The notes: generated by a model from the letters alone, not told the origin. A stretch of DNA of 64,000 nucleotides from GCF_053078305.1 NZ_CP166879.1, one strand, 5' to 3'; shown: positions 21,891-63,062, counted from the first letter of the stretch. Numbers and translations are program-made.

Positions 21891-22187
21891 TATCTTTTAC
21901 AAGCAACTTGCAATCTTTATCATAAAAACTCGAGCCTTTACGAAGAAAGCGATATTGATGGCAAGATTAACGTGACCGCCAATTCGTAAGTACATTAAAA
22001 TTGGTTTCGTTATTGGCGATTTTGCTGTGCTTTACACCATGCCACAGAATTCCCCCATTGAAACGAGTGGTGTCGTCAAAGCTCTGGTGTGGAGTGCAGC
22101 ATGCACCCTCAATAACTCGCACGTTCAGTTTTGGGGAGATGTAAGGGCTAATCTGAACGGCTGCATTCCTTGTTTAAGGAAAAACGA

Positions 22188-22268
22188 ATGACTGATTGCC
22201 GATACCTTATTAAACGGGCCATCAAAATCATCATTGCTGTTTTACAGCTGATCCTTCTGTTCTTATAA
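22188..22268 (+). CDS. shoB: Type I toxin ShoB (26-aa hydrophobic peptide)
   Basis: ATG at 22188 encodes MTDCRYLIKRAIKIIIAVLQLILLFL then TAA; not in ORF track because under 60 aa. Confidence 0.75.
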   Translation: MTDCRYLIKRAIKIIIAVLQLILLFL

Positions 22269-22285
22269 CACAAGGAAACGTACTT

Positions 22286-22322
22286 AAGGTGCGTCCGGTG
22301 AACCAGTCGGACGCACCTTTAA
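22286..22322 (+). terminator. Hairpin after shoB
   Basis: aggtgcgtccg ... cggacgcacct 11-bp inverted repeat followed by ttaataa. Confidence 0.5.
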
Positions 22323-22462
22323 TAACTATAAATAAGTGTCTGGGCAGATACTATATAAATTAACTTAGTGAATGTTTATGCTAATAATCATCAATTAAAT
22401 AAATATAATAGCGTTAAGGTTTCCCTATAAAATAATTAATACTCTACTTCAGGAGCAGAATA

Positions 22463-22732
<270 letters not shown>

Positions 22733-22937
22733 TTACCGTTAAATTATTTTAAAATCAGTAAGTTGTATCGAGTTTGTATGCTTTACAGTTATTAACTTAC
22801 TGTATGTTGATCCAGTGTATTTAACCTTGATAAACTCAGTCCAGCAACACAAAACCGCAACACATTGCATTTTGTCCCGTAGAAAAGACTTGTATGTGTG
22901 AGCTTGTTTTCTGCGCCTACGCAGATAAGGATTGAGA

Positions 22938-24335
22938 ATGCCGCGCACTGTAACACATAATCCGGATAGCCCCAATAATGACGATGTTTTAGCCGCATCT
23001 GAAAAATGGGACGCCTGTAAACCCCCCTATACCAGCGCACACATAAAAATCTGTGTTGCTGCCGCCAAAATCATCCTCGCAGCTTCCGGCGTGGCTCGCC
23101 GTTCCAAATACGAAAAAGAGAACTATCTCCGTATCGATTTCAGCAAAGCCGGTAAGGTTACATTTTACGCCGAGTTTCCAAAAAAGATGGGCCTCAAGGG
23201 TAAAAAGCTCGGCGAGTGGCCGGAGCTCGCTATCCAGCTGGCGCGCGAAAAAGCGCTAGGTATGGCTGACTGTGGCTTGCGGGCAGAGTCCGTACATGCA
23301 GCGCTGGAAATGTACCGGGATGACCTCAAAGCCAAAGTCGCCCGGCAGAAGCTGAGCCCGGACAGTTTCACAACCTACGGGGTGCGTATCGACCGGATTA
23401 AAGCAACGTTCGGCGAGCGTGAGGTGTTCAGCGACGTAACATACAATCGGCTAGTGGAAGTGCTGGACGAGTGGATCGCCACTCGCTCGAACAATAACGC
23501 CCTGGAGTTGTTTGCCGAGCTCCGTCGGTTCTGGAAGTTCTGCGCACCTACTCTTTGTAACGGTCGCAATGTTGCTGCCAGTCTGCCAGATGATTATGTT
23601 TCCTCCCGCGTACAGAAACCCACCCCCACACGGCTTTTTACCGATATTGAGTCAATCGCCCGGCTCTGGCTCAATGTTGCCGCCTGCACCTCTGTACACC
23701 AGAAGAATGCTGTTCGCTTCATGATCATCACCGGCGTTCGTCCGATTAATGTCCATAACCTGCGCTGGGACTACGTTCACGAGGAGACTGGCGAAATTGT
23801 TTATCCTGAAGGGGTTATCGGCATGCGAGGGGCTATGAAAACACAAAAGGCTTTCCGCCTGCCAATAACGCCGGAGATCCGGCGGATTATCGACGAGCAG
23901 AAAGCATGGCGTGATTCAGTTCCTGAGTGCAACAGGGATTATGTATTTTTGCAGCCGCGTGATCCAATGCAGCCATTTTCAAAACGATCACTGGATAAGC
24001 TAGTGAAAACATACAGCCCGGATGGGGCTGTAAAAGGATTAAAACATGATGGGACTGTTAAAGGGAAAGACGGTGCATTTAATACGATGTGCCGTAAATT
24101 CCTTAAGAGCAATGTTATTGCCTTGATGAAGGAAAGAGGCTATTCCCGATCAGACCGAAGGGAAATCAGCCTCCTTTGCCTTCACCACTCCAGCAAGTCA
24201 GATGACCCGATGGCAGAACATTACGACTTTTCTGATGAGATTTTGCAGGAAGAGATTGCGTTAAAGCGCGAAGCTTTCGAGGCTCACGAGCGGAGCATAC
24301 TTGCGCAGGTGGCATTGCTACGGCGGCGAGGTTAA
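22938..24335 (+). CDS. int: Phage integrase, tyrosine recombinase family
   Basis: Adjacent to attL; C-terminal region with R...H..R...Y-type catalytic signature (ITGVRP..., LHHSSKSD..., AEHY); ATG at 22938 preceded by aagga. Confidence 0.8.
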   Translation: MPRTVTHNPDSPNNDDVLAASEKWDACKPPYTSAHIKICVAAAKIILAASGVARRSKYEKENYLRIDFSKAGKVTFYAEFPKKMGLKGKKLGEWPELAIQLAREKALGMADCGLRAESVHAALEMYRDDLKAKVARQKLSPDSFTTYGVRIDRIKATFGEREVFSDVTYNRLVEVLDEWIATRSNNNALELFAELRRFWKFCAPTLCNGRNVAASLPDDYVSSRVQKPTPTRLFTDIESIARLWLNVAACTSVHQKNAVRFMIITGVRPINVHNLRWDYVHEETGEIVYPEGVIGMRGAMKTQKAFRLPITPEIRRIIDEQKAWRDSVPECNRDYVFLQPRDPMQPFSKRSLDKLVKTYSPDGAVKGLKHDGTVKGKDGAFNTMCRKFLKSNVIALMKERGYSRSDRREISLLCLHHSSKSDDPMAEHYDFSDEILQEEIALKREAFEAHERSILAQVALLRRRG

Positions 24336-25985: not shown

Positions 25986-26783
25986 ATGCCCCTGGCAAAA
26001 ATACTTACAAAACAAGTTTCTTTATTAACTGTTTTTTCAGCGTTAGCTTATGTGATGGCATATTCTTTTCAGAAAGGTGTTGCATCGTATTATGGCTATC
26101 CAGCCCTTTTTATTAAAATAGATTTAAATACGCTATTGTATTCGGCTGTATGGCTTTTGTTTTTTAGTTTTTTATTTCTCGGTGCCTTATACGCGACATT
26201 GATGTTTGATTTGAAAGGGAAATATTATGTTCCATTTATTATATTTATAGTGGTTATGCTAATACCTAATTTTTACATAATAGGATTCCATTGGCCTTTT
26301 GGTTATTTCTCAGAAACCTCTGTGATGAGTGTTGGAGATATTTTATTATTTGCTCTGCTTTTGTTGAATTACCACAATGCGGTGTCCGCGTCAATCCATA
26401 GTAAGAGACACGAACATCATATGGATAGCATTAGAAAATTTGGGAGGCTTGCAGAGTATAAAGACGTATTTTATTATATCGATTTAAAAATCCTAAAATC
26501 AGCTTTTCCTTTAGGGGTGATGACATTATTGATATTGAGCTATACCTTCGGGAAGGTTACTGCATTTAAAAATAACGAATATTATATGGTAGATGGTAGT
26601 AATACTAAAGTGTTGCTCAATTCATTTGGTAGTGGTTTTGTTGTTGGTGATTGTGAGTCCAATAGCGCAAAATTTGAATTTGTTAATGATTTAAAAGGGA
26701 TGAAATTCACAGTCATGTCCTCTAAAAAGGAAATAGCTAAATTAAAAGAGTGTTTCGAAACACGTGTTAAAAATACGGATTAA
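25986..26783 (+). CDS. AT-rich multi-pass membrane protein of unknown function (cargo)
   Basis: 265 aa, at least four hydrophobic helices; strongly AT-rich codon usage versus neighbours; ggagg RBS 6 nt upstream; extended -10 TGgTAGAAT at 25945..25953. Confidence 0.5.
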   Translation: MPLAKILTKQVSLLTVFSALAYVMAYSFQKGVASYYGYPALFIKIDLNTLLYSAVWLLFFSFLFLGALYATLMFDLKGKYYVPFIIFIVVMLIPNFYIIGFHWPFGYFSETSVMSVGDILLFALLLLNYHNAVSASIHSKRHEHHMDSIRKFGRLAEYKDVFYYIDLKILKSAFPLGVMTLLILSYTFGKVTAFKNNEYYMVDGSNTKVLLNSFGSGFVVGDCESNSAKFEFVNDLKGMKFTVMSSKKEIAKLKECFETRVKNTD

Positions 26784-27125: not shown

Positions 27126-27677
27126 TTAGCGACGGCTGGGATGAATTTTTTCACGGAGAACTAAGGTTAGTTGTTCTAGTGTCAATGGCTCGCCAAAATT
27201 CTCATGAAATAATGGATTGAATACATGCATCATGCGTTCGTATGTTGCCAGCGAAGGCGTGTGAGAATTAAGATCTCTTAATTTGAATTCTTCAAATCTA
27301 TCCAGTTTATTGATGACGAAATCAGCGGCTGCAAGATACTCAGTTTCGTTATTTCCATCGAATCCTTTGAATATTGGATTTTTTCCAAATAACTCAACAT
27401 TTTCTTTTAACTTCTTTTTTTCTTCTTCTGTAAGTTCACTGTAGCTATATTCAATAACTCTCCACATATCTAGGATGTCTAGAACTTTTTTTACAACACG
27501 TGGAGTTTCGGTATTTTTAAATGGAATACCACTAAATTTCCAAGGGAGTGCCCATGTTTGGTTTTCGAATATAGCATCACGGACAAATGTGTGATCGATT
27601 TCGCCTTCAATCTCGTTTTTATCGTACAGGTCACACAGCATCATTAGAATTAGTTTTTCGCCATCTGAAAGTTGCAT
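27126..27677 (-). CDS. YfbU-family (UPF0304)-like protein, function unknown (cargo)
   Basis: 183 aa; blocks M.LSDGEKLILMML, VKKVLDILDMW, FKGFDGNNETEYL...RFEEF and YERMMHVF resemble E. coli YfbU as recalled from memory; AT-rich. Confidence 0.45.
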   Translation of the reverse strand: MQLSDGEKLILMMLCDLYDKNEIEGEIDHTFVRDAIFENQTWALPWKFSGIPFKNTETPRVVKKVLDILDMWRVIEYSYSELTEEEKKKLKENVELFGKNPIFKGFDGNNETEYLAAADFVINKLDRFEEFKLRDLNSHTPSLATYERMMHVFNPLFHENFGEPLTLEQLTLVLREKIHPSRR

Positions 27678-27682
27678 GTTTT

Positions 27683-28192
27683 TTATCCTTGAGTGTTAAA
27701 CGTTAAATCATCAACGAGTAGATCTATGTGAGGTTGAATAGCCAATATTTTTGCATGCAAAACTCTACCTGTTCTTAACTTTTCCGCAGGAGTTTTTGCA
27801 TCTGAAAGCTCAGAAATATTTTCCCTTATTTCAGCACAAAAATTTTCTGAGTCTATGCTCAATTTTACTTTATTGTTAGGTTTTATTGCTTGGGCTGCAA
27901 ATAAATCGATGAAATCCTCTATTTCAGAAATTATTGGTTCTAAACTTATGCCTCGAACATTTTCCTCATTCGAACCAGGACCAATTGCTCTTAGAGATTT
28001 TATGGCGGTTGATAACTTTCCATGAAGGTTGCCTGCGTCCCTTATACTACGTTGATAATTGACCGTAGCTAAAGCCTTTTGAGCTTCTGTGGCGGCATCC
28101 CGCGACTTTTTCCACCCCCATAGTGAACACATAGCACCAACTATGGTAACAAAAGTACCTATCCTTGATAGCCAGACATCTGTATTTTCCAT
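27683..28192 (-). CDS. Membrane-anchored protein of unknown function (cargo, upstream partner of the YfbU-like gene)
   Basis: 169 aa, single N-terminal TM helix (WLSRIGTFVTIVGAMCSLWGW) then soluble domain; 5-bp gap to downstream gene; AT-rich. Confidence 0.45.
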   Translation of the reverse strand: MENTDVWLSRIGTFVTIVGAMCSLWGWKKSRDAATEAQKALATVNYQRSIRDAGNLHGKLSTAIKSLRAIGPGSNEENVRGISLEPIISEIEDFIDLFAAQAIKPNNKVKLSIDSENFCAEIRENISELSDAKTPAEKLRTGRVLHAKILAIQPHIDLLVDDLTFNTQG

Positions 28193-28277: not shown

Positions 28278-30341
28278 TCAGTCCTTACGGTAGTGGTACG
28301 CCTCAAAACCGCCAGCGTTCAGTGGGATATCGGGCGCCCATTCGGGGTTAGTGGAGAGAAGCGCGGAAAGCGCTTTATCGTTGAAATCTTCTGTGTCAGG
28401 TGCTTCGGTGATCACCTCGTCGTGTACCGTCAGCACAATGCTGTAACCGGCATCTTCGATAAGCGGCATGTTTCCGGCCAGAACGTCGCGGGCGGCCGCT
28501 TGGGTGACGTTCTCCACCAGCTTTCCGCCGTAGGTTTTGAGTCGTTGCCATTTACGTGAATAAGAGTTAACACCCATATAGGTGATATTCCCTTTTTCGA
28601 TAATCGGAGACGGGTAGCATACAGCGCGTCCAGATGGCAGCTGTATGCGCAGCCACGCGCCATCACGTCGGATTTTAAGATAGCCGCAATACAATGTTTT
28701 TTGCGGTGTGGCGATTGCAGTGCGGACGGTGCGCTCCAGTTCGTACCAGAAATCACAGGTCGCGGGATGCGCCCGGCGCCAGAGACGTTTAAGTGAGTCG
28801 CAGGCGATAAATACCCGTTCAGAAAGCCCGTAGGTTGACTTGCGTTTAACCGATTCGTCGTACCAGCTTTTCGCCTCGCGGATAACATCGCGGGGAATGT
28901 TTGGTAGTGCGGCGTTCGCCAGCTCGTCGAGATCGAGACCGTAAACCAGTGCAAAAGTGATGAAGGCCGACACACCACCACCATAACCCAGACCGAGTTC
29001 CATGACTTTACCGATCTGACGCATGTGTTTATCAACATCATCTGGTGCAATATCGAAAGCTTTTGCATACGCCAGTTTATATAAGTCCGGACCCGTTCCG
29101 GCGTCGTACTCTCTGAATGCATTCAGTTTCCATTCTTCTCCCGCCAGCCATGCCAGCATACGGCCTTCAATGTTCGACAAGTCACTTACCACCAGCTTTT
29201 TGCCTGTTGGCGCGATAATGCAGCCACGTAACGCTGAACTGGTTAGTTCCATGATATTGTCAAACAGCAGGTCTGCACATCCGGCTTTCAGTGCTTCGAT
29301 GCCTTCGTCTATTTGTTCCTGTTTTAGTGAAGGGCGGGGAAGGTTCTGGGGCTGGAATAGCCGTCCGGCCCAACGACCGGTACGTGACGCCCCGCAGAAC
29401 TGTAGCGTACCGCGTAAGCGCCCGTCGTGGCTTACGCCTTTCATCAGTGCCTTGTATTTACTGGTGCTGGTAGTACTGGCCTGCAGGCGGATAGCCAGCA
29501 GTTCTTTCACGGCAGATGGTAAATCGGGGTCGGCAATACGACGTTCCAGAGTACTGCGTTGCATGTCTGGTAGCTCCACACCGTAGGATTCAACAATGTG
29601 CTTAATCAACGCGTCTCGTTGTGTGGCTGCCTGCACTTCGCCATCAGTCATTTCCTGTGTACGCTTTGCCAGGCGCTTTTGTTCCTGGTCTACCGCGTCG
29701 ATCGCAGCGCGTGCGAGTTCCACGTCCATGCAGACGCCCCGGTCATTGATCTGCTGATCACGATGCCAGAGCGCCAGTTCTGTCCCCTGATAATTCCACT
29801 TCGGCAGACGTTTATAGACTTCGCGCATTGCCTCGATATCCAGTCCGGCGTAAGCAACAAAGCGCCGCCATTCTTCCGGGTGGGTTTTGCTGGTGGCCCG
29901 GCGCAGTTTGCTGTTTTTCGGGCGTGGCTTACAGAACAGCTGGATCAGCGCTTTACCTTCTTTGTCCTTCGCTTTGTCTTGCGGGACGCCTAGTACTTCG
30001 CAGAGTTCCCCCAGAGACCCCGGGAGACCGTGCGCCAGCGCCTGCACCATTGTGTCGCGCCAACGTTCGACTGGCGGTGCCAGGCGCGGCATTGCATAAC
30101 GCAGAACGGTGCGGTCGAAGTGAGAGTTATGGAAATAAAGCAGGGTTTCAGGGTCTGCGATTGCTTCGTATAAGCCGTGTGGAATACCACCACCGGCAGT
30201 GATATCCCACACGTTTACTGGCCCGTCGTTGATAGCCCATGCGAAAAGCATCACTTCAACGCCTTCGGCATACGCATGGGTACCGTTCGTAATAGGGATT
30301 TCGCAATAGGTTTCCAGGTCGCCCCATAGTATATTGGACAT
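28278..30341 (-). CDS. Family-A (Pol I-like) DNA polymerase
   Basis: 687 aa; motif B-like [16 protein letters not shown] and motif C-like [12 protein letters not shown]-terminal region consistent with a 3'-5' exonuclease domain. Confidence 0.72.
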
Positions 30342-30387
30342 GTGTTTACCTTGGTTTTTATTCTATTAACTGATTAAAAGATTAATT

Positions 30388-31017
30388 ATGCATATGATCC
30401 AATACTTGATTGACCATACAGAGCATCTGGAGAAAATAGCTGGATATATTTTTTCATGTTTGATTGTTATGGGAGTCTGGATAAGAAAGATCATTTTTAA
30501 TTATAAGTATAAAGAGCCTAAATATGTCAAGAAGTTAATTTTATATTTAGTTAAGTATGAACGTTATCTGGATGAGGAGGATAAGAGTGCCATAGAAAAA
30601 AGAATAAATGATAAAATTATTCGTGATGCGCTGAAATTGCAATCCTCTTATAACCGAAGAGATGTTATTTACATTTGCAATAGATTAGAAAAAAGACAGT
30701 ATATAAATCAGTTGATTAAGCTTCAGAATTATATAGAGAAAGATAACGGAGTGTTTTTTATTAATGTTGATTTTTCAGGTTTTTTATTTATTATTAGTCG
30801 TCTGTTTTCCTTTCTGTGTTTTGTGCTGTTTACCCTTTTTTCTATTATCTGCATTATTTCCATAGGGCAAAATGAAGGCCTTTTAAATTATCTTGTGTAT
30901 ATGGTTATGATAATAGTTTTAGAGACTGTTGGTTTTTGGATGTATGATACTTTCCCGTCTAAGAAAAAGATCTGTGAACTAAATAAAGAATTGAGAAAGA
31001 TTAAGATTCCTGAGTGA
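30388..31017 (+). CDS. AT-rich membrane protein of unknown function (cargo)
   Basis: 209 aa, one N-terminal and two C-terminal hydrophobic helices, K/E-rich middle; very AT-rich; divergent from polymerase gene. Confidence 0.5.
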   Translation: MHMIQYLIDHTEHLEKIAGYIFSCLIVMGVWIRKIIFNYKYKEPKYVKKLILYLVKYERYLDEEDKSAIEKRINDKIIRDALKLQSSYNRRDVIYICNRLEKRQYINQLIKLQNYIEKDNGVFFINVDFSGFLFIISRLFSFLCFVLFTLFSIICIISIGQNEGLLNYLVYMVMIIVLETVGFWMYDTFPSKKKICELNKELRKIKIPE

Positions 31018-31033
31018 TTATACGCCTAATCAG

Positions 31034-31058
31034 TAGCCCGGTGTTTAACCGGGCGTCT
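31034..31058. terminator. Hairpin between convergent genes
   Basis: gcccggt-gttta-accgggc 7-bp stem; no strong U-tract. Confidence 0.35.
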
Positions 31059-31069
31059 ATGAAGTAGGG

Positions 31070-31618
31070 TTAAATTAGTGCTTCAGCATCAGCACCTTCG
31101 CTGATATCGTCGAAATCGTCAGCGCTTGCCACTCCGCCGCCAGCGAATGCATCGCCGTCTCGCAGGAACTGGACTCCGCCGAGTGAGGCATTAATGCGTT
31201 TACCGAAATTATTGTCCTGTGCCCAGATATCGATAACGGCGTTTACATAGCACCCTGCATAGGGACGTCCGTCAGCCTGAATAAGTGGCGAACGATCGCG
31301 ATCAAGAACAGCTGGGCGCGCTTTGTTAGCAGCATTCAGGAAGAAATTACCGGGGAAGCCTTCATACTCTGCTTTTTCATCACCATCATGCAGGCACAGA
31401 TTGAGTTTTTTCTCCAGCTGGTTATAAATGGGCTCCCACTTCTCTCCCCATTTTTCCTTCGCTACCTGCTTCATAGCTTTACGGATTTCTTCCAGTTGTG
31501 GGTGTTTGGGAGACATTAAAAATACTGCGGAGAAACGCGGATCGCCTTCGCCGTTTACAGTTTTAGCTTCAAACAGAGACGGGAAGGCCAGACGAACATT
31601 GTTCAGCTTCAGTTTCAT
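31070..31618 (-). CDS. Putative phage ssDNA-binding protein (DUF2815-like)
   Basis: 182 aa with acidic C-terminal tail (DDFDDISEGADAEALI) typical of SSB-like proteins; co-occurs with the downstream nuclease in phage replication modules. Confidence 0.55.
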   Translation of the reverse strand: MKLKLNNVRLAFPSLFEAKTVNGEGDPRFSAVFLMSPKHPQLEEIRKAMKQVAKEKWGEKWEPIYNQLEKKLNLCLHDGDEKAEYEGFPGNFFLNAANKARPAVLDRDRSPLIQADGRPYAGCYVNAVIDIWAQDNNFGKRINASLGGVQFLRDGDAFAGGGVASADDFDDISEGADAEALI

Positions 31619-31633
31619 GGGTATTTCCTTAAA

Positions 31634-32935
31634 TCAGATGAGGTCTGCGGTTAGCGTATCGTCGGATACGTCGTCGAAATCATTTACAGGGTTGATATTG
31701 AGTGCGGGGCGTGGGTCTGACTCGGGAACGACGGTTGGTTTACCATCAGCTCGTGTTATCAGTGCCTCGACTTTTGACCAACGGCGTGGACTGGCCTTTT
31801 TGATAAGTTTTTCGGCTTTTGTGGGACTAATAAGTTTAAAGTCGAATACTTCTTCAGTTTTGTACCTGAACTGGTCCTTCAGAAGTGCGCGAGCTGCCTC
31901 TTCATCACTCCAGGCCCGGTTACCTTGTTTTCCTGTTACCAGTTTAAACCCCGGTACCGGATGTCCGGCATTGAGTTCATTGTGAACCCGGTCCCGTACT
32001 GCCTTTAGCCAGGATTCAATAAAGTCGGCCTGGCTATAGATCTCCGCAAGCTGCTCAATGGTTAACAGAGGTACACGTGCGCTGGCATTGGTGATTATTT
32101 CGCTGACAGGCTTTGTCAGATCTTCAAAATCGCTGGCCGCTGTTTGTAAATGCTGCATTTTCTGGGCAGTGCAAATAGCTTTTGCTTTACAGAAGCGGCA
32201 CTGTTTTTCTCCAGGTATGAAGTTTTCCAGCGGTAGTGTCTCAATGCCTTCGCATTCAGCAATATTGAGAACAAGGATCGCACTGGTTGCGGCCTCCTGT
32301 GCCCGTTCACCGAAAGACTGAAGTTCCTGTACGGTTAACGACCATTCTGAAACGTGGTTGAGCCTTGGCTGGTGAATAAATAATCTTACAGTCTCAAAGT
32401 CATACAGCATGCTGAATTGTTCGAGCGCACCCAGAGCATACAGTTGTAGTTGCTCATTTTGTTCTGCATCAATGCGGACGCCTTTGCCATATTTCAGGTC
32501 GTGGATTTGTAATTCGTTACCAGCGATGATTATGCCGTCGGCAGTTCCGAAAGATTCTTCCACCCCCGTTATATGTGAGAAATCAACACGTTGTTCAACC
32601 AATAGTTCATTATTCTGTGCAAGAGTCCAGACCGTATCAACATACCGGCCAACGGCTTCGACCATTTCATCATCCACCTGTGGGCCAGATGTATCATCAG
32701 GATTTTCGCGAAGGGGGTATGAGCCGAGAAACATAGAAACATTGCATCCGGCGTAGTGTTCCGGGTGGCTTTGCCTGTTTCGTAGAACTTTTTCAGCAAG
32801 CGCGTGCGCTGCAGTGCCCTCGATTGCAAAAGTTGTTTCTTTATCCGGTTGTGTGGCCTCCAGCGCCAGACTTCCTGGGCAGCGCATCCATCGATGCGCT
32901 GATGATGGAGAAAGTTGTGCATGAACGTCTGGCAT
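31634..32935 (-). CDS. PD-(D/E)XK nuclease, Cas4/RecB-like (DUF2800-like)
   Basis: 433 aa; C-terminal cysteine cluster [10 protein letters not shown] plus additional Cys residues resembling a Cas4-type Fe-S motif. Confidence 0.6.
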
Positions 32936-55951: not shown

Positions 55952-56286
55952 TGAAACGGTTATGTTTGGCGTTAGTTATGATGGTTACTGCTCCGGCGAT
56001 GGCTGCAATTCAGTGCGGCAACTACACGATGACCGGTGACGGAATGACTGTTATTAACGGTGAAACTGTCACATCACAGAAGATAAAATTTCTGGGAAAA
56101 GATGGTGACTATTCAAACATGAAAATGGACATGGGCCTGATGCCTTCCCGTGATGGTAACAATTACGGCTTTGAGTTTGTGAAACGTAACGGAAAAGCTT
56201 TCCTGAACGTCCAGCTGCTGCAGAACAGCATGGACGCGCCGAAAATCATTGGATCTTTCCCGTGTAAAAAAGTGAGCAGCAAGTGA
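55951..56286 (+). CDS. Secreted small protein of unknown function (cargo inside baseplate operon)
   Basis: 111 aa with cleavable signal peptide MKRLCLALVMMVTAPAMA; start overlaps upstream stop (TAATGA). Confidence 0.45.
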   Translation: MKRLCLALVMMVTAPAMAAIQCGNYTMTGDGMTVINGETVTSQKIKFLGKDGDYSNMKMDMGLMPSRDGNNYGFEFVKRNGKAFLNVQLLQNSMDAPKIIGSFPCKKVSSK

Positions 56287-56795
56287 CAGTTGATGATGAT
56301 CCTTTGAATTCATTTCAAGACCCTGACTTTCAGGAACTTCTCGGCGGAATTGATATTACTCTTGTTATAAGGTTTTTTAATTATTTTTCGCGTTTCGAAT
56401 ATGCGTTAAAAAGAATTAATTTCAAAAAAACTGATCGTAGAAATTATCTAATCGGTGCTGACTGGAGCCGCTACGCTACTGATGATACGCGGCCTTTATA
56501 TCCTACTGGAAATAGAAATGTCGATAGGGCAGTTGAGTATCTATGTCAGCAACCTGTGAAGCAGCAGAGGCATGATTTTTCGTGGGAGGATAAACCTCCA
56601 ATCGAACCTCATTCTCTTGCTGAAGCATTAAAGCAGATCCCGTATATAAGAAATAATCTCTTTCACGGCGGGAAGTATTTACGTCCCGACCCCGTTCGTG
56701 ATGAAAAGTTATTGAAATACTCTATTTATTTGATGCAGTTGTGTTTGATAACTGATAATCAGCTTTCTGAATACTTTAATACTATCCACCGATAG
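56283..56795 (+). CDS. AT-rich protein of unknown function (cargo inside baseplate operon)
   Basis: 170 aa; markedly AT-rich versus flanking baseplate genes; followed by a hairpin plus T-run. Confidence 0.45.
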   Translation: MTVDDDPLNSFQDPDFQELLGGIDITLVIRFFNYFSRFEYALKRINFKKTDRRNYLIGADWSRYATDDTRPLYPTGNRNVDRAVEYLCQQPVKQQRHDFSWEDKPPIEPHSLAEALKQIPYIRNNLFHGGKYLRPDPVRDEKLLKYSIYLMQLCLITDNQLSEYFNTIHR

Positions 56796-56805
56796 TCATT
56801 CTTCA

Positions 56806-56840
56806 TGAGATAAAACCTGCCACCCGGCGGGTTTTTTGCT
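56806..56840 (+). terminator. Possible terminator after cargo gene
   Basis: accc-ggcg-gggt short stem followed by ttttttgcttttt. Confidence 0.4.
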
Positions 56841-56855
56841 TTTTGGAGCCTAACA

Positions 56856-57608
56856 ATGGCAGTAACTGACCAGACCCGCAGTGGCGATCTTGCCGAAACA
56901 TTTAAATCTGAACGGGAAACAACAAAGAACCAGATCCGTGTCGCCTTGCCTGGCATTATTCAGTCATTCGATCCTGACGCGGTGACGGCGGTTGTGCAGC
57001 CAGCTATCCGGTCGGTTGAAAAGGATAACGACGGTAACCGCATTACCAAAAATTACCCATTGCTGGTGGATGTGCCAGTGGTATTCCCGCGCGGCGGAGG
57101 CTGTACGTTGACTTTTCCGGTAAAAGCTGGGGATGAGTGTCTTGTCGTTTTTGCCGATCGTTGTATTGATTTCTGGTGGCAGAGCGGCGGGATACAGGAG
57201 ACGGTTGATGACAGAATGCATGATTTATCGGATGCGTTTTGTATTGTCGGTCCCCAGTCGCAGGCAAGGAAGATTAGCGGTATTAATACCAGTGCCACAC
57301 AGTTGCGTAGTGACGACGGCAGCACCTATTTTGAGCTTAATCCTGATACCCGGAAAATTAAAATTGTCGCTCCGGGGGGGCTTGATGTGGTTGCCCCCCT
57401 GGCTGATTTTTCTGAGAAAGTAACCATTCATGGCCTGTTAACCTGGATGGGGGGCATGGTGGGGTCTGTTGTTTCTGGTGTGGCTTCAAAAATCACTGGT
57501 GCTGTTGAGTTTTTGGGTAGCGTGAAGGCTAACGGCAAGCCAATCGATGATACGCACACTCATGGTGGTGTTCAGCGCGGTGGAAGCAATACCGACGGAG
57601 TAAACTGA
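56856..57608 (+). CDS. Baseplate spike/central needle protein (Mu gp45-like)
   Basis: 250 aa; Gly-rich C-terminal repeats and HTHGGVQRGGSNT tip motif. Confidence 0.55.
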   Translation: MAVTDQTRSGDLAETFKSERETTKNQIRVALPGIIQSFDPDAVTAVVQPAIRSVEKDNDGNRITKNYPLLVDVPVVFPRGGGCTLTFPVKAGDECLVVFADRCIDFWWQSGGIQETVDDRMHDLSDAFCIVGPQSQARKISGINTSATQLRSDDGSTYFELNPDTRKIKIVAPGGLDVVAPLADFSEKVTIHGLLTWMGGMVGSVVSGVASKITGAVEFLGSVKANGKPIDDTHTHGGVQRGGSNTDGVN

Positions 57609-61885: not shown

Positions 61886-62533
61886 CTATGAAGCTAATTT
61901 GTTTAATTTCATTTGTAGTGACTTTACTTCTTGGTCGATAATGTCGAATCCCTTATTGACAGCATCTCTTAGCTCTGCATCAATATTTTTTATCCCTTGA
62001 GCATAATCTACCATTATATTTATTTTTGCATCATGTAATCTCTTATACATGGTTTTATTTTTGTTATTGTCTGCCATGCCAATAAGGATTTTTTCATAAT
62101 CCTCAATGAGTTTGTTGTTTCCTTTAAATGATTGTATTAATGAGCGTGAATATGTGTATATGTTAATTATTGAGTCTCTAGCAGAATCATTTAGTTTTGC
62201 AATGACATTCGCATTTTGCTCATAGAATGTGAAATTATCATCCCCTACAGGGAATGTGAGAATCAACATTTGTCCCGGTTTTATATTATCAATGTGTGTT
62301 TTCATCCTTTTATTATATAAATTGATTAGGGTGAAAACTTCTCCCTTAACTCCTTTTAATACTGAAAGTTGTAATTCAAGGGATTCTCTTTCTGTCTCTA
62401 CTTTAGACAGCTTAGCTTGTTGGGTAACTCCTTTTAGGGTAAACCATCCGCCAATAAGAGTACCAACTAGAGCTGTGAGGGAGGAGGATAACCATCCAGG
62501 TATGCTATTTAAAAGATTACTAAATTCACTCAT
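61886..62533 (-). CDS. Membrane-anchored protein of unknown function (cargo at prophage right end)
   Basis: 215 aa; N-terminal TM helix (WLSSSLTALVGTLIGGWFTL), predicted coiled coil, N/K-rich soluble domain; AT-rich. Confidence 0.45.
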   Translation of the reverse strand: MSEFSNLLNSIPGWLSSSLTALVGTLIGGWFTLKGVTQQAKLSKVETERESLELQLSVLKGVKGEVFTLINLYNKRMKTHIDNIKPGQMLILTFPVGDDNFTFYEQNANVIAKLNDSARDSIINIYTYSRSLIQSFKGNNKLIEDYEKILIGMADNNKNKTMYKRLHDAKINIMVDYAQGIKNIDAELRDAVNKGFDIIDQEVKSLQMKLNKLAS

Positions 62534-62593
62534 TATAAGTACTCGCTAATATTGAACGATATATATATATCAAATTATTATAAAACTCGTCAG

Positions 62594-62935
62594 CTACTGG
62601 AGAAGGCTACCTGAACTTCGATCTATTCCTGCATCCATATAGTTGATGGTCTTCTGGAGCTCTTCGATTAGGGCAACAGCTTTTGCTCGAGAAATGCATA
62701 TTAGTTGATCCGGAAATTCTTGTAAGGGCCAGTTTGGTATACAGGCCATGTTATCAATGAAGGATGCAGACAAGTAAACTTCATTGGTAACCAGAGAATA
62801 GCTTACCTCAAAATTGGTGAGTTCCGGCAAACTGCTAACGTTTGACTCTTTTCTGCGCATAATATTATCCATGACTGTAATTATGTACAGGTGATGGTCT
62901 TCAATTTCGAAGAGGGAGTCAAGGGGGAGTCTCAA
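62594..62935 (-). CDS. Protein of unknown function (cargo, upstream partner)
   Basis: 113 aa, AT-rich, same strand as and 60 bp upstream of the 215-aa gene. Confidence 0.45.
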   Translation of the reverse strand: MRLPLDSLFEIEDHHLYIITVMDNIMRRKESNVSSLPELTNFEVSYSLVTNEVYLSASFIDNMACIPNWPLQEFPDQLICISRAKAVALIEELQKTINYMDAGIDRSSGSLLQ

Positions 62936-63062
62936 ATGAACCGTTATAGAAAAAGGGGGGGGATCTTTGTGTTGCTGAACTTATGCAAAATTTTTTTGCA
63001 CCATAAATCCAACAACACATTCAATAACACATTGCTGTATCACTATGAAAATAAATGTGTTT

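What the first reader, a model, noticed from the sequence alone, without database searches (positions are those of the whole stretch)
30388..31017. Second AT-rich membrane-protein cargo gene divergent from the phage DNA polymerase
A 209-aa protein with an N-terminal TM helix, a K/E-rich soluble middle and two C-terminal TM helices is encoded on the opposite strand between the polymerase and SSB-like genes. It is very AT-rich, and a 7-bp-stem hairpin separates it from the convergent downstream gene. Same reasoning as for the other cargo loci.
Basis: partly seen in the sequence, partly recalled or inferred. Interest (0 to 1): 0.5.

Follow-up and report, generated by a model that had tools for sequence, protein, structure and literature searches.

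The report
Swappable prophage membrane-protein cargo gene
This is a real, very AT-rich, stand-alone gene for a small inner-membrane protein of an uncharacterised family. It sits in a swap-prone slot of an E. coli prophage and most likely protects the lysogen against other phages, though that function is untested.

Summary
ORF 30388-31017 (+) encodes a 209-aa protein at 29% GC, against 54% for the polymerase gene. It diverges from the phage family-A polymerase gene and converges on the Gp2.5-like SSB gene, with a 7-bp hairpin at 31036-31054 in between.

It is cargo. 158 complete E. coli genomes carry the ≥95%-identical pol/SSB backbone, and homology breaks exactly at the pol start and SSB stop codons. 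The slot holds this gene in 66 genomes and a 199-aa remote homologue in 20. The rest carry unrelated cassettes (Nmad5, Ant/BRO-N, others).

The family is phrog_10579, function unknown. It has no significant hit in Pfam, NCBIfam, PADLOC or PDB. It is always solitary and AT-rich, and it occurs in other mobile-element slots, including the P2 S–V moron slot and a site upstream of a lambdoid Q gene.

The predicted layout is a marginal N-terminal TM helix, a ~90-aa cytoplasmic helical domain, a β-hairpin, a TM hairpin and a conserved cytoplasmic tail.

The best guess is a lysogen-expressed, single-gene membrane defence or exclusion protein, possibly SLATT-like. SLATT membership was tested and not met. 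The function is inferred, not shown.

The parts
30388..31017 (+). CDS for a 209-aa membrane protein of the phrog_10579 family (= WP_000551017.1). It has a marginal TM1 at about aa 17-37 and a cytoplasmic helical domain at aa 38-111. A β-hairpin at aa 116-125 carries the G-x-F-F-I motif. TM2 lies at about aa 132-160 and TM3 at about aa 165-188, with a conserved Glu179. The cytoplasmic tail carries the signature P190-x4-I195-x3-N199-x-E201-L202-x-K204.
30342..31069 (.). Cassette-specific DNA of 728 bp. Similarity to prophages carrying other cassettes ends exactly at the pol start codon (30341). On the other side it ends at the SSB stop codon (31070), or at 31037 in the Ant/BRO-N variants.
30335..30364 (+). 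The only sigma-70-like site upstream of the gene: TGGACA, 18 nt, TATTCT, 9 of 12 matches. The -35 element overlaps the first pol codons. The number of sites in the region is not above chance, so this is a candidate only.
30350..30354 (-). Shine-Dalgarno-like AAGGT for the polymerase gene, 8 nt upstream of its ATG. It lies inside cassette-specific DNA, and each alternative cassette supplies its own equivalent.
   Evidence: read directly from the sequence
31036..31054 (.). Hairpin with a 7-bp G+C-rich stem and a 5-nt loop, between the convergent stop codons. No U-tract follows on either strand. A weaker 5-bp version is present behind the SSB gene in the Ant/BRO-N cassette variants.
28278..30341 (-). 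Flanking backbone gene: phage family-A DNA polymerase (phrog_17).
31070..31618 (-). Flanking backbone gene: DUF2815 / Gp2.5-like ssDNA-binding and annealing protein (phrog_112).

Best explanation
The gene is a horizontally mobile, single-gene accessory cassette (a moron) in a recombination-prone slot between the polymerase and SSB genes of a temperate E. coli myovirus. This part is shown.

It encodes a small inner-membrane protein. Its conserved ~90-aa helical domain and conserved C-terminal tail face the cytoplasm, and almost nothing faces the periplasm. This is predicted.

It lies antisense to the repressed early replication operon. It would therefore be expressed in the lysogen and silenced by read-through transcription after induction. 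This is inferred.

The mechanism I commit to is a stand-alone anti-phage module that acts at the inner membrane. The cytoplasmic domain senses an infection cue. The TM hairpin, which carries a conserved intramembrane Glu, then assembles to permeabilise or depolarise the membrane. That would be an abortive-infection effector resembling SLATT 2-3TM proteins, but with a built-in sensor instead of a partner enzyme. This is inferred.

My probabilities:
- Cargo or moron status: about 0.9.
- Any anti-phage or anti-mobile-element exclusion role: about 0.55.
- The specific SLATT-like abortive-infection mechanism: about 0.3.
For: Slot variability:
- 158 of 5426 complete E. coli genomes have the backbone. 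66 carry this gene, 20 carry a 199-aa allele, and the rest carry Nmad5, Ant/BRO-N or other cassettes. Breakpoints fall at the flanking start and stop codons.
- The 199-aa protein in the same slot and orientation is a remote homologue. hhalign gives 96.5% probability, E 9e-10, 190 columns and 18% identity. Three unrelated membrane proteins used as controls gave 0.1-1.1%. AlphaFold2 gives the same order of secondary-structure elements for both proteins.

Contexts of homologues. All are solitary, none has a recurrent partner, and GC is 28-40% against 41-55% in the flanks:
- The P2-like prophage S-V slot, one of three known P2 moron regions (PMC6823313).
- Upstream of a lambdoid Q antiterminator, beside GAPS4, HD and methylase-HNH genes.
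- On the opposite strand beside recT.
- Near TraG_N in a conjugative-type element.
- At the end of a CP4-57-type island.
- In chromosomal islets.

Topology and conservation:
- K/R bias places the middle domain and the tail in the cytoplasm across the family.
- The cytoplasmic domain and the tail are the best-conserved segments, at 38% and 46% mean pairwise identity. The TM helices, N-terminus and periplasmic loop are at 25-31%.

SLATT leads:
- A weak PADLOC RTasSLATT hit falls on the 199-aa allele, E 0.05-0.09.
- A weak DUF4231 hit covers the TM hairpin of P0005, E 3.7.
- SLATT proteins are described as mobile pore-forming effectors with 2-3 TM helices (PMC9226505).

Single TM-protein defence systems have precedent, for example Longwang (bioRxiv 10.1101/2024.12.27.630466).
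Against: - No experimental evidence of expression or of any phenotype exists.
- No Pfam, NCBIfam, PADLOC or PDB match is significant.
- The SLATT labels come from third-party automatic names that I could not verify.
- Known SLATT effectors work with a partner (a cyclase, TIR, RT or RADAR). None is linked here.
- A constitutively expressed pore-former without a partner or antitoxin needs tight autoinhibition, which is unproven.
- The candidate promoter is no better than chance, there is no obvious Shine-Dalgarno sequence, and there is no canonical terminator.
- At 29% GC the gene could be silenced by H-NS. This rests on general knowledge.
- pN/pS among near-identical alleles is uninformative: 0.24-1.7 on 6-13 differences.
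Confidence: 0.35

Rival explanations
1. A superinfection-exclusion protein. This would be a constitutively made inner-membrane protein that blocks genome entry by incoming phages, or by conjugative DNA, without killing the cell. It would work like P22 SieA, T4 Imm, HK97 gp15 or the TraS/Eex entry-exclusion proteins.
For: - It is a solitary prophage-borne membrane protein oriented for expression in the lysogen.
- It needs no partner in any context.
- Very divergent alleles are exchanged at one slot.
- One homologue lies beside conjugation genes.
- Known solitary prophage membrane proteins are often Sie proteins (general knowledge).
Against: - Predicted periplasmic exposure is only about 16 N-terminal residues and a 5-residue loop. 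The most conserved parts are cytoplasmic.
- There is no similarity to any PHROG annotated as superinfection exclusion.
- The Pfam TraS hit is not significant: E 0.084 in one member.
- P0004 is not in the TraS position downstream of traG.
Confidence: 0.22
2. A lysogenic-conversion or fitness factor unrelated to phage defence. This would be a membrane protein that changes a host envelope, transport or stress function and so benefits the lysogen in some niche.
For: - Morons in the same kinds of slots can be niche fitness genes. PMC3573123 appeared in the P2-like moron literature search.
- Xenorhabdus and Pluralibacter homologues are chromosomal islets away from obvious phage genes.
- There is no match to any defence model.
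Against: - Placement in phage and island hotspots next to defence genes recurs: GAPS4, HD and methylase-HNH, and TIR in the adjacent slot of relatives.
- No enzymatic or transport domain is present.
- The protein is small, with only 2-3 TM helices.
Confidence: 0.15
3. A phage-intrinsic function for this prophage's own cycle. Examples are membrane anchoring of the replication machinery, lysis timing, or control of the divergent polymerase gene.
For: - The gene lies inside the replication module, 46 bp from the pol start.
- The cassette supplies the pol Shine-Dalgarno sequence.
- There is a weak holin-PHROG hit, E 0.37.
Against: - Prophages 98-99% identical in pol and SSB replace the gene with unrelated genes.
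- Homologues occur in tail-gene, Q-proximal, island and chromosomal contexts with no replication genes.
- The orientation is antisense to the replication operon.
- The lysis cassette lies about 9 kb away.
Confidence: 0.05
4. A selfish or functionless passenger. This would be an AT-rich ORF kept by hitch-hiking in a recombination hotspot and largely silenced, with no benefit to phage or host.
For: - No promoter signal rises above chance and there is no Shine-Dalgarno sequence.
- Truncated copies exist: P0002 at 158 aa and many partial calls.
- pN/pS is inconclusive.
Against: - Full-length architecture, length and a C-terminal signature motif are conserved down to about 18-25% identity across several enterobacterial genera.
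- The ORF is intact in all 6 distinct alleles examined.
- The identical protein is found on 945 contigs.
Confidence: 0.08

Closest known systems
[quoted passage not shown]
   Same: - Small proteins of about 150-250 aa with 2-3 TM helices and cytoplasmic helical segments.
- Highly mobile and frequent in defence loci (PMC9226505; bioRxiv 10.64898/2026.04.29.721553).
- Some structural neighbours of this protein in AFDB50 carry the SLATT name.
- There are weak RTasSLATT and DUF4231 hits.
   Different: - No significant HMM match to any SLATT model.
- No linked cyclase, TIR, RT or RADAR partner in any of nine contexts examined.
- The domain order here is TM1, cytoplasmic domain, β-hairpin, TM hairpin, conserved tail.
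- Membership was tested and not met, so only the 'works like' analogy remains.
Prophage superinfection-exclusion membrane proteins (P22 SieA, T4 Imm, HK97 gp15)
   Same: - Solitary, small, phage-encoded inner-membrane proteins.
- Made in the lysogen or the infected cell to exclude other phages.
- Accessory and dispensable. This comparison rests on general knowledge.
   Different: - No sequence or profile similarity.
- The predicted periplasmic exposure is minimal.
- The function is untested.
Morons of the P2 S-V (orf30) region and other prophage hotspots
   Same: - A 38%-identical homologue occupies exactly the P2-like S-V slot in Rahnella prophages and in four IMG/VR contigs.
- That slot is one of three known moron regions of P2-like phages (PMC6823313).
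- P2 and P4 hotspots are reservoirs of anti-phage systems (PMC9122126).
   Different: - The slot here, between pol and SSB of a different phage type, has not been described as a hotspot in anything I found.
- The S-V slot genes are themselves of unknown function.
Single-gene transmembrane defence proteins (e.g. Longwang, a lone 2TM protein)
   Same: - One gene encoding TM helices plus a helical soluble part.
- Proposed to act from the envelope (bioRxiv 10.1101/2024.12.27.630466).
   Different: - No homology was tested or known.
- The host lineage and the regulation are different.

Membership tests
Prophage moron / variable-slot cargo | Present or absent, or replaced by unrelated genes, among otherwise near-identical prophages, with sharp homology breakpoints | tested here: met
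   158 genomes have the backbone and 66 have this gene. Other genomes carry alternative cassettes instead. Breakpoints are at 30341 and 31070.
Prophage moron / variable-slot cargo | Base composition deviates from the surrounding phage genes | tested here: met
   29.2% GC against 49-54% in the flanking genes. Homologues are 28-40% against 41-55% in their flanks.
Prophage moron / variable-slot cargo | Own promoter and terminator, so that the gene is transcribed independently in the lysogen | tested here: inconclusive
   Opposite-strand orientation is confirmed. Only one 9/12 promoter-like site was found, not above chance, and there is no canonical terminator. The hairpin lacks a U-tract.
phrog_10579 (unknown function) | Significant match to the family HMM | tested here: met
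   E 2.9e-108 over residues 28-209. All distant homologues also match, and the 199-aa allele matches weakly at E 7e-4.
SLATT 2TM effector superfamily | Significant match to a SLATT-clan model (Pfam SLATT_1-6, DUF4231; PADLOC RTasSLATT) | tested here: not met
   Pfam gave nothing at E<=0.1 for 14 members. The best hit was DUF4231 at E 3.7 in P0005. PADLOC RTasSLATT gave E 0.049 and 0.085, only on two near-identical 199-aa alleles. NCBIfam gave nothing.
SLATT 2TM effector superfamily | 2-3 TM helices plus cytoplasmic helices in a protein of about 150-250 aa | tested here: met
   Hydropathy, the Hessa scale and AlphaFold2 agree. The definition is taken from PMC9226505.
SLATT 2TM effector superfamily | Genomic association with a signal-generating or sensing partner (SMODS, TIR, RT or RADAR) | tested here: not met
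   No recurrent neighbour appears in the nine contexts examined.
SLATT 2TM effector superfamily | Structural similarity to bona fide SLATT proteins | tested here: inconclusive
Superinfection-exclusion proteins (SieA, Imm, gp15 types) | Homology to a known Sie family | tested here: not met
   No annotated Sie PHROG matched at E<=1. tblastn against 50,697 phage records found only three near-identical prophage-derived phages.
Superinfection-exclusion proteins (SieA, Imm, gp15 types) | Blocks phage DNA entry without killing the cell | not testable with these tools
   This needs infection assays.
Plasmid/ICE entry-exclusion proteins (TraS, Eex) | Match to the TraS model, or a position directly downstream of traG | tested here: not met
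   Pfam TraS scored E 0.084 in one of 14 members. P0004 lies upstream of and divergent from the TraG_N operon, not in the TraS position.
Holin / lysis protein | Located in the lysis cassette, with a match to a holin family | tested here: not met
   Holin, endolysin and spanin genes lie about 9 kb downstream. The holin PHROG hit scored only E 0.37.

The most novel reading that the evidence does not exclude
The phrog_10579 family, comprising the 209-, 199-, 212- and 216-aa forms, may be a previously unrecognised class of stand-alone anti-phage membrane proteins. A cytoplasmic sensor domain would be fused to a SLATT-like TM hairpin, or the protein could act as a new kind of entry blocker. The family circulates as a one-gene cassette among prophage hotspots, islands and ICEs of Enterobacterales. 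The pol/SSB junction of this prophage lineage would then be a new defence hotspot.
Probability: 0.3. Interest if true: 0.6.

Novelty: new variant of a known kind. Interest (0 to 1): 0.45.

Why it matters
If the family proves to be a one-gene membrane defence or exclusion module, it would add a compact and easily testable system that current defence catalogues miss. It has no PADLOC hit, although it is present in about 1-2% of complete E. coli genomes and on about 1000 or more contigs.

It would also define the pol/SSB junction of a common E. coli prophage lineage as a cargo hotspot useful for discovery by guilt by association. The neighbouring nuclease/pol slot already holds TIR and ATPase genes in relatives.

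A partner-less SLATT-like protein would also bear on an open question noted in the DRT10 preprint: how SLATT effectors are gated.

If the gene has no phenotype, it is simply one more hypothetical moron.

Tried and rejected
- **Family libraries.** Pfam on the protein, on two homologues and on all 14 alignment members gave no significant family. NCBIfam and PADLOC gave nothing significant. The single PDC-S47 hit for P0010 (E 4e-4) and the REase_II hits were not reproduced across members, so I treat them as noise.
- **Solved structures.** A PDB sequence-profile search gave only TM-composition noise at E>1.
- **Close-allele selection.** pN/pS on close alleles rested on too few differences to interpret.
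- **Flanking repeats.** There are no flanking direct or inverted repeats that would mark a transposon-like insertion, only short AT-rich chance matches.
- **RNA families.** No Rfam family matched in 29800-31700.
- **Other cargo proteins.** Homology to the window's other membrane cargo proteins and to the 89-aa slot protein is rejected, at hhalign probability 0.1-1.1%.
- **Viral-contig scan.** A scan with the broad alignment failed for lack of conserved stretches. It worked with the four closest sequences.
- **Literature.** Searches for the accession and for the phage name found nothing. The original SLATT paper could not be retrieved.
- **Direct SLATT comparison.** A profile-profile test against true SLATT alignments could not be run, because no bona fide SLATT sequences or Pfam HMMs were available locally.

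Full report
**1. The observation**

The ORF list shows a 209-aa ATG-initiated frame at 30388..31017 on the + strand. RefSeq annotates the identical CDS as a hypothetical protein, WP_000551017.1, in E. coli JNEC-KY175. There the locus lies in a prophage integrated next to yfhL.

The gene is 29.2% G+C. The divergent polymerase gene is 54.2%, the convergent SSB gene 49.2% and the whole window 50.2%.

The flanking genes are:
- a family-A phage DNA polymerase, 28278..30341 on the - strand (phrog_17);
- a DUF2815/Gp2.5-like SSB, 31070..31618 on the - strand (phrog_112);
- a DUF2800 exonuclease beyond the SSB gene.

The spacers are 46 bp on the polymerase side and 52 bp on the SSB side.

The hairpin is real. 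It reads GCCCGGT-GTTTA-ACCGGGC at 31036-31054, with a folding energy of -15.2 kcal/mol and z = -4.3 against shuffles. No U-tract follows it on either strand, and the terminator scan found nothing. I would not call it an intrinsic terminator.

No Rfam family matches the region. No meaningful flanking repeats are present.

**2. The protein**

Kyte-Doolittle and Hessa-scale scans agree with an AlphaFold2 model built on 14 family sequences (pLDDT 75.7). Together they give these elements:

| Element | Residues | Note |
|---|---|---|
| Hydrophobic helix (TM1) | about 17-37 | marginal here, clearly membrane-spanning in Xenorhabdus homologues |
| Four helices | 45-111 | cytoplasmic domain |
| β-hairpin | 116-125 | carries a conserved G-x-F-F-I motif |
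| TM2 | about 132-160 | long TM helix |
| TM3 | about 165-188 | contains a largely conserved Glu179 |
| Short helix | 192-202 | in the tail |

K/R counts place the middle domain (14-22 K/R across full-length members) and the tail (3-7 K/R) in the cytoplasm. Only about 16 N-terminal residues and a 5-residue loop are left outside.

The cytoplasmic domain and the tail are the best-conserved segments, at 38% and 46% mean pairwise identity. The other segments are at 25-31%.

N199 and L202 are invariant, within the signature P190-x4-I-x3-N-x-E-L-x-K.

The N-terminal 27 residues are conserved in the homologues, which supports the annotated start. The PHROG profile begins at Met28, which probably reflects truncated gene calls.

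**3. Homology**

A search of 5.8 billion proteins found only near-identical E. coli and Enterobacteriaceae sequences. An exhaustive phmmer search of 1.84 billion cluster representatives found just 10 proteins at E ≤ 1e-3, with 25-43% identity among the full-length distant hits. Profile searches added Xenorhabdus, Enterobacter, Klebsiella and Pluralibacter members.

All of these match phrog_10579, whose function is unknown.

Nothing significant was found in:
- Pfam;
- NCBIfam;
- PADLOC;
- PDB sequences;
- Foldseek against BFVD.

Foldseek against AFDB50 returned 19 hits at E ≤ 1e-3. All are enterobacterial proteins of about 200-250 aa and evidently belong to the family. Most are uncharacterised. 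[quoted passage not shown] Others are named DUF4239 or DUF2721.

There are also sub-threshold RTasSLATT hits on the 199-aa allele (E 0.05-0.09) and a DUF4231 hit on the TM hairpin of P0005 (E 3.7). Taken together these make a SLATT lead, not a demonstration.

**4. Cargo status**

The 728-bp cassette is present in 66 of 5426 complete E. coli genomes. It is always chromosomal and always single-copy. It is also present in three induced E. coli myoviruses.

A query with 1 kb of each flank hit 158 genomes. BLAST against representatives shows that similarity of 97-99% (94% for one SSB-side flank) ends exactly at the pol ATG (30341) and the SSB stop (31070). In the Ant/BRO-N variants it ends at 31037, inside the hairpin.

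The alternative contents of the slot are:
- an 89-aa two-TM protein plus Nmad5;
- a 229-aa soluble protein plus Nmad5;
- a 199-aa membrane protein, alone or with Ant;
- a BRO-N protein.

The 199-aa protein has the same orientation and start position. It is a remote homologue of the 209-aa protein:
- hhalign gives 96.5% probability, E 9e-10, 190 aligned columns and 18% identity.
- Three unrelated membrane proteins used as controls give 0.1-1.1%.
- Its AlphaFold2 model (pLDDT 80) has the same order of elements.

The 199-aa allele occupies the slot in 20 genomes, as two sub-alleles 80% identical at the DNA level. The family therefore fills about 54% of the slots, as deeply divergent and exchangeable alleles.

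Each cassette carries its own Shine-Dalgarno sequence for pol. I could not find an empty slot in the 60 records sampled.

**5. Contexts of distant homologues**

| Homologue | Identity to the 209-aa protein | Context |
|---|---|---|
| P0005 | 38% | Between gpS and gpV of P2-like prophages in Rahnella and in four IMG/VR contigs |
| P0007 | 27% | Directly upstream of a lambdoid Q antiterminator, beside GAPS4-type PDDEXK, HD and methylase-HNH genes |
| P0008 | 28% | Opposite strand, between PAPS-reductase and recT genes of a phage contig |
| P0004 | 43% | Near TraG_N genes |
| P0079 (199-aa form) | 21% | At the end of a CP4-57-type island carrying antirestriction, RadC and CbtA/CbeA genes |
| Xenorhabdus and Pluralibacter copies | 23-28% | Solitary chromosomal islets |

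The S-V slot is one of the three recognised moron regions of P2-like phages (PMC6823313).

No neighbour recurs across these contexts. All copies but one are about 28-35% G+C (P0007 is 40%), each well below its flanks. The unit of function is therefore the single gene.

**6. Mechanism**

Shown: this is an exchangeable accessory gene, not part of the conserved replication module.

Inferred:
- The early operon (SSB, then the cassette, then pol) must transcribe through the cassette antisense to this gene. No - strand promoter-like site was found inside the cassette.
- The gene is therefore best placed to be expressed when the operon is repressed, which means in the lysogen.
- It would be damped after induction.

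The protein presents its conserved surfaces to the cytoplasm and has a TM hairpin with a buried Glu. I favour a stand-alone, membrane-acting anti-phage protein.

The specific proposal is a SLATT-like effector that permeabilises the membrane once its own cytoplasmic domain senses infection. SLATT proteins are described as mobile pore-forming effectors with 2-3 TM helices (PMC9226505; bioRxiv 10.64898/2026.04.29.721553). Lone TM-protein defence systems also exist (bioRxiv 10.1101/2024.12.27.630466).

The main rival is classical superinfection exclusion, in which DNA entry is blocked. I rate it only slightly lower. Non-defence lysogenic conversion, a phage-intrinsic role and a functionless passenger are less likely, for the reasons given under the rivals.

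**7. Weak points**

- No expression data exist.
- The one promoter-like site (30335-30364) is no better than chance.
- There is no Shine-Dalgarno sequence upstream of the ATG.
- pN/pS among close alleles is uninformative.
- SLATT membership fails the HMM test and the partner test.
- The UniProt names behind the SLATT lead could not be checked.

**8. Verdict**

The gene is an uncharacterised but coherent family of solitary, AT-rich, mobile membrane-protein genes. It is a reasonable and cheap candidate for phage-challenge testing. It is not a surprise in kind, because prophage hotspots with membrane morons are well known.

Interest is moderate. Novelty is 'new variant of a known kind'.

Noticed in passing
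window 25986-26783 (+): Another AT-rich cargo-like gene (32.5% GC). It encodes a 265-aa multi-TM protein between the DEAD-box helicase and the PDDEXK nuclease. It has no PHROG, PADLOC or NCBIfam hit, is also present in JNEC-KY175, and is not related to the 209-aa family (hhalign 1.1%).
   Followed up: partly
window 27126-28192 (-): A two-gene AT-rich cassette (36-38% GC) between the nuclease and the polymerase. It encodes a 183-aa YfbU-like protein (NF003936, E 2e-15, below the cut-off; phrog_6084) and a 169-aa protein with an N-terminal TM helix and no hits. Relatives carry other genes in the same slot, which makes it a second variable hotspot. IAI1 and phage vB_EcoM-689R2 have a TIR-domain protein there. 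JNEC-KY175 has an ATP-binding protein, and O103:H2 12009 has an ANR regulator plus DUF4406.
   Followed up: partly
L003 1894-2532, L005 2243-2884 (same slot in other E. coli): Many relatives carry an Nmad5-family putative nucleotide-modification gene on the replication strand in the pol/SSB slot. It is paired with an 89-aa two-TM protein or with a 229-aa soluble protein on the opposite strand.
   Followed up: no
L007 3213-3728; hit H48: An HNH endonuclease gene is inserted between the DUF2815 SSB gene and the DUF2800 exonuclease gene in some relatives. This looks like a homing-endonuclease-type insertion in the replication module.
   Followed up: no
window 30350-30354 and equivalents in L003-L006: The polymerase Shine-Dalgarno sequence lies in cassette-specific DNA, and every alternative cassette supplies its own. 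Cassette exchange therefore also swaps the pol translation-initiation region.
   Followed up: partly
window 30469 (Met28 of the ORF): The phrog_10579 profile (182 positions) starts at Met28. PHROG members were probably called from an internal start, which loses the N-terminal helix that is conserved across the family.
   Followed up: partly
window 22001-23000, 56001-57000, 62001-63000: There are further AT-rich dips (GC 0.40, 0.43 and 0.36). The first is near the yfhL/integrase junction, and the other two lie in or beyond the late region. None was examined.
   Followed up: no
L007 1-1408: In E. coli O121 201805972 the polymerase CDS is annotated at 2835 bp instead of 2064 bp, and the annotated end nearest the cargo slot is displaced. 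This may be a different gene call or a fusion.
   Followed up: no
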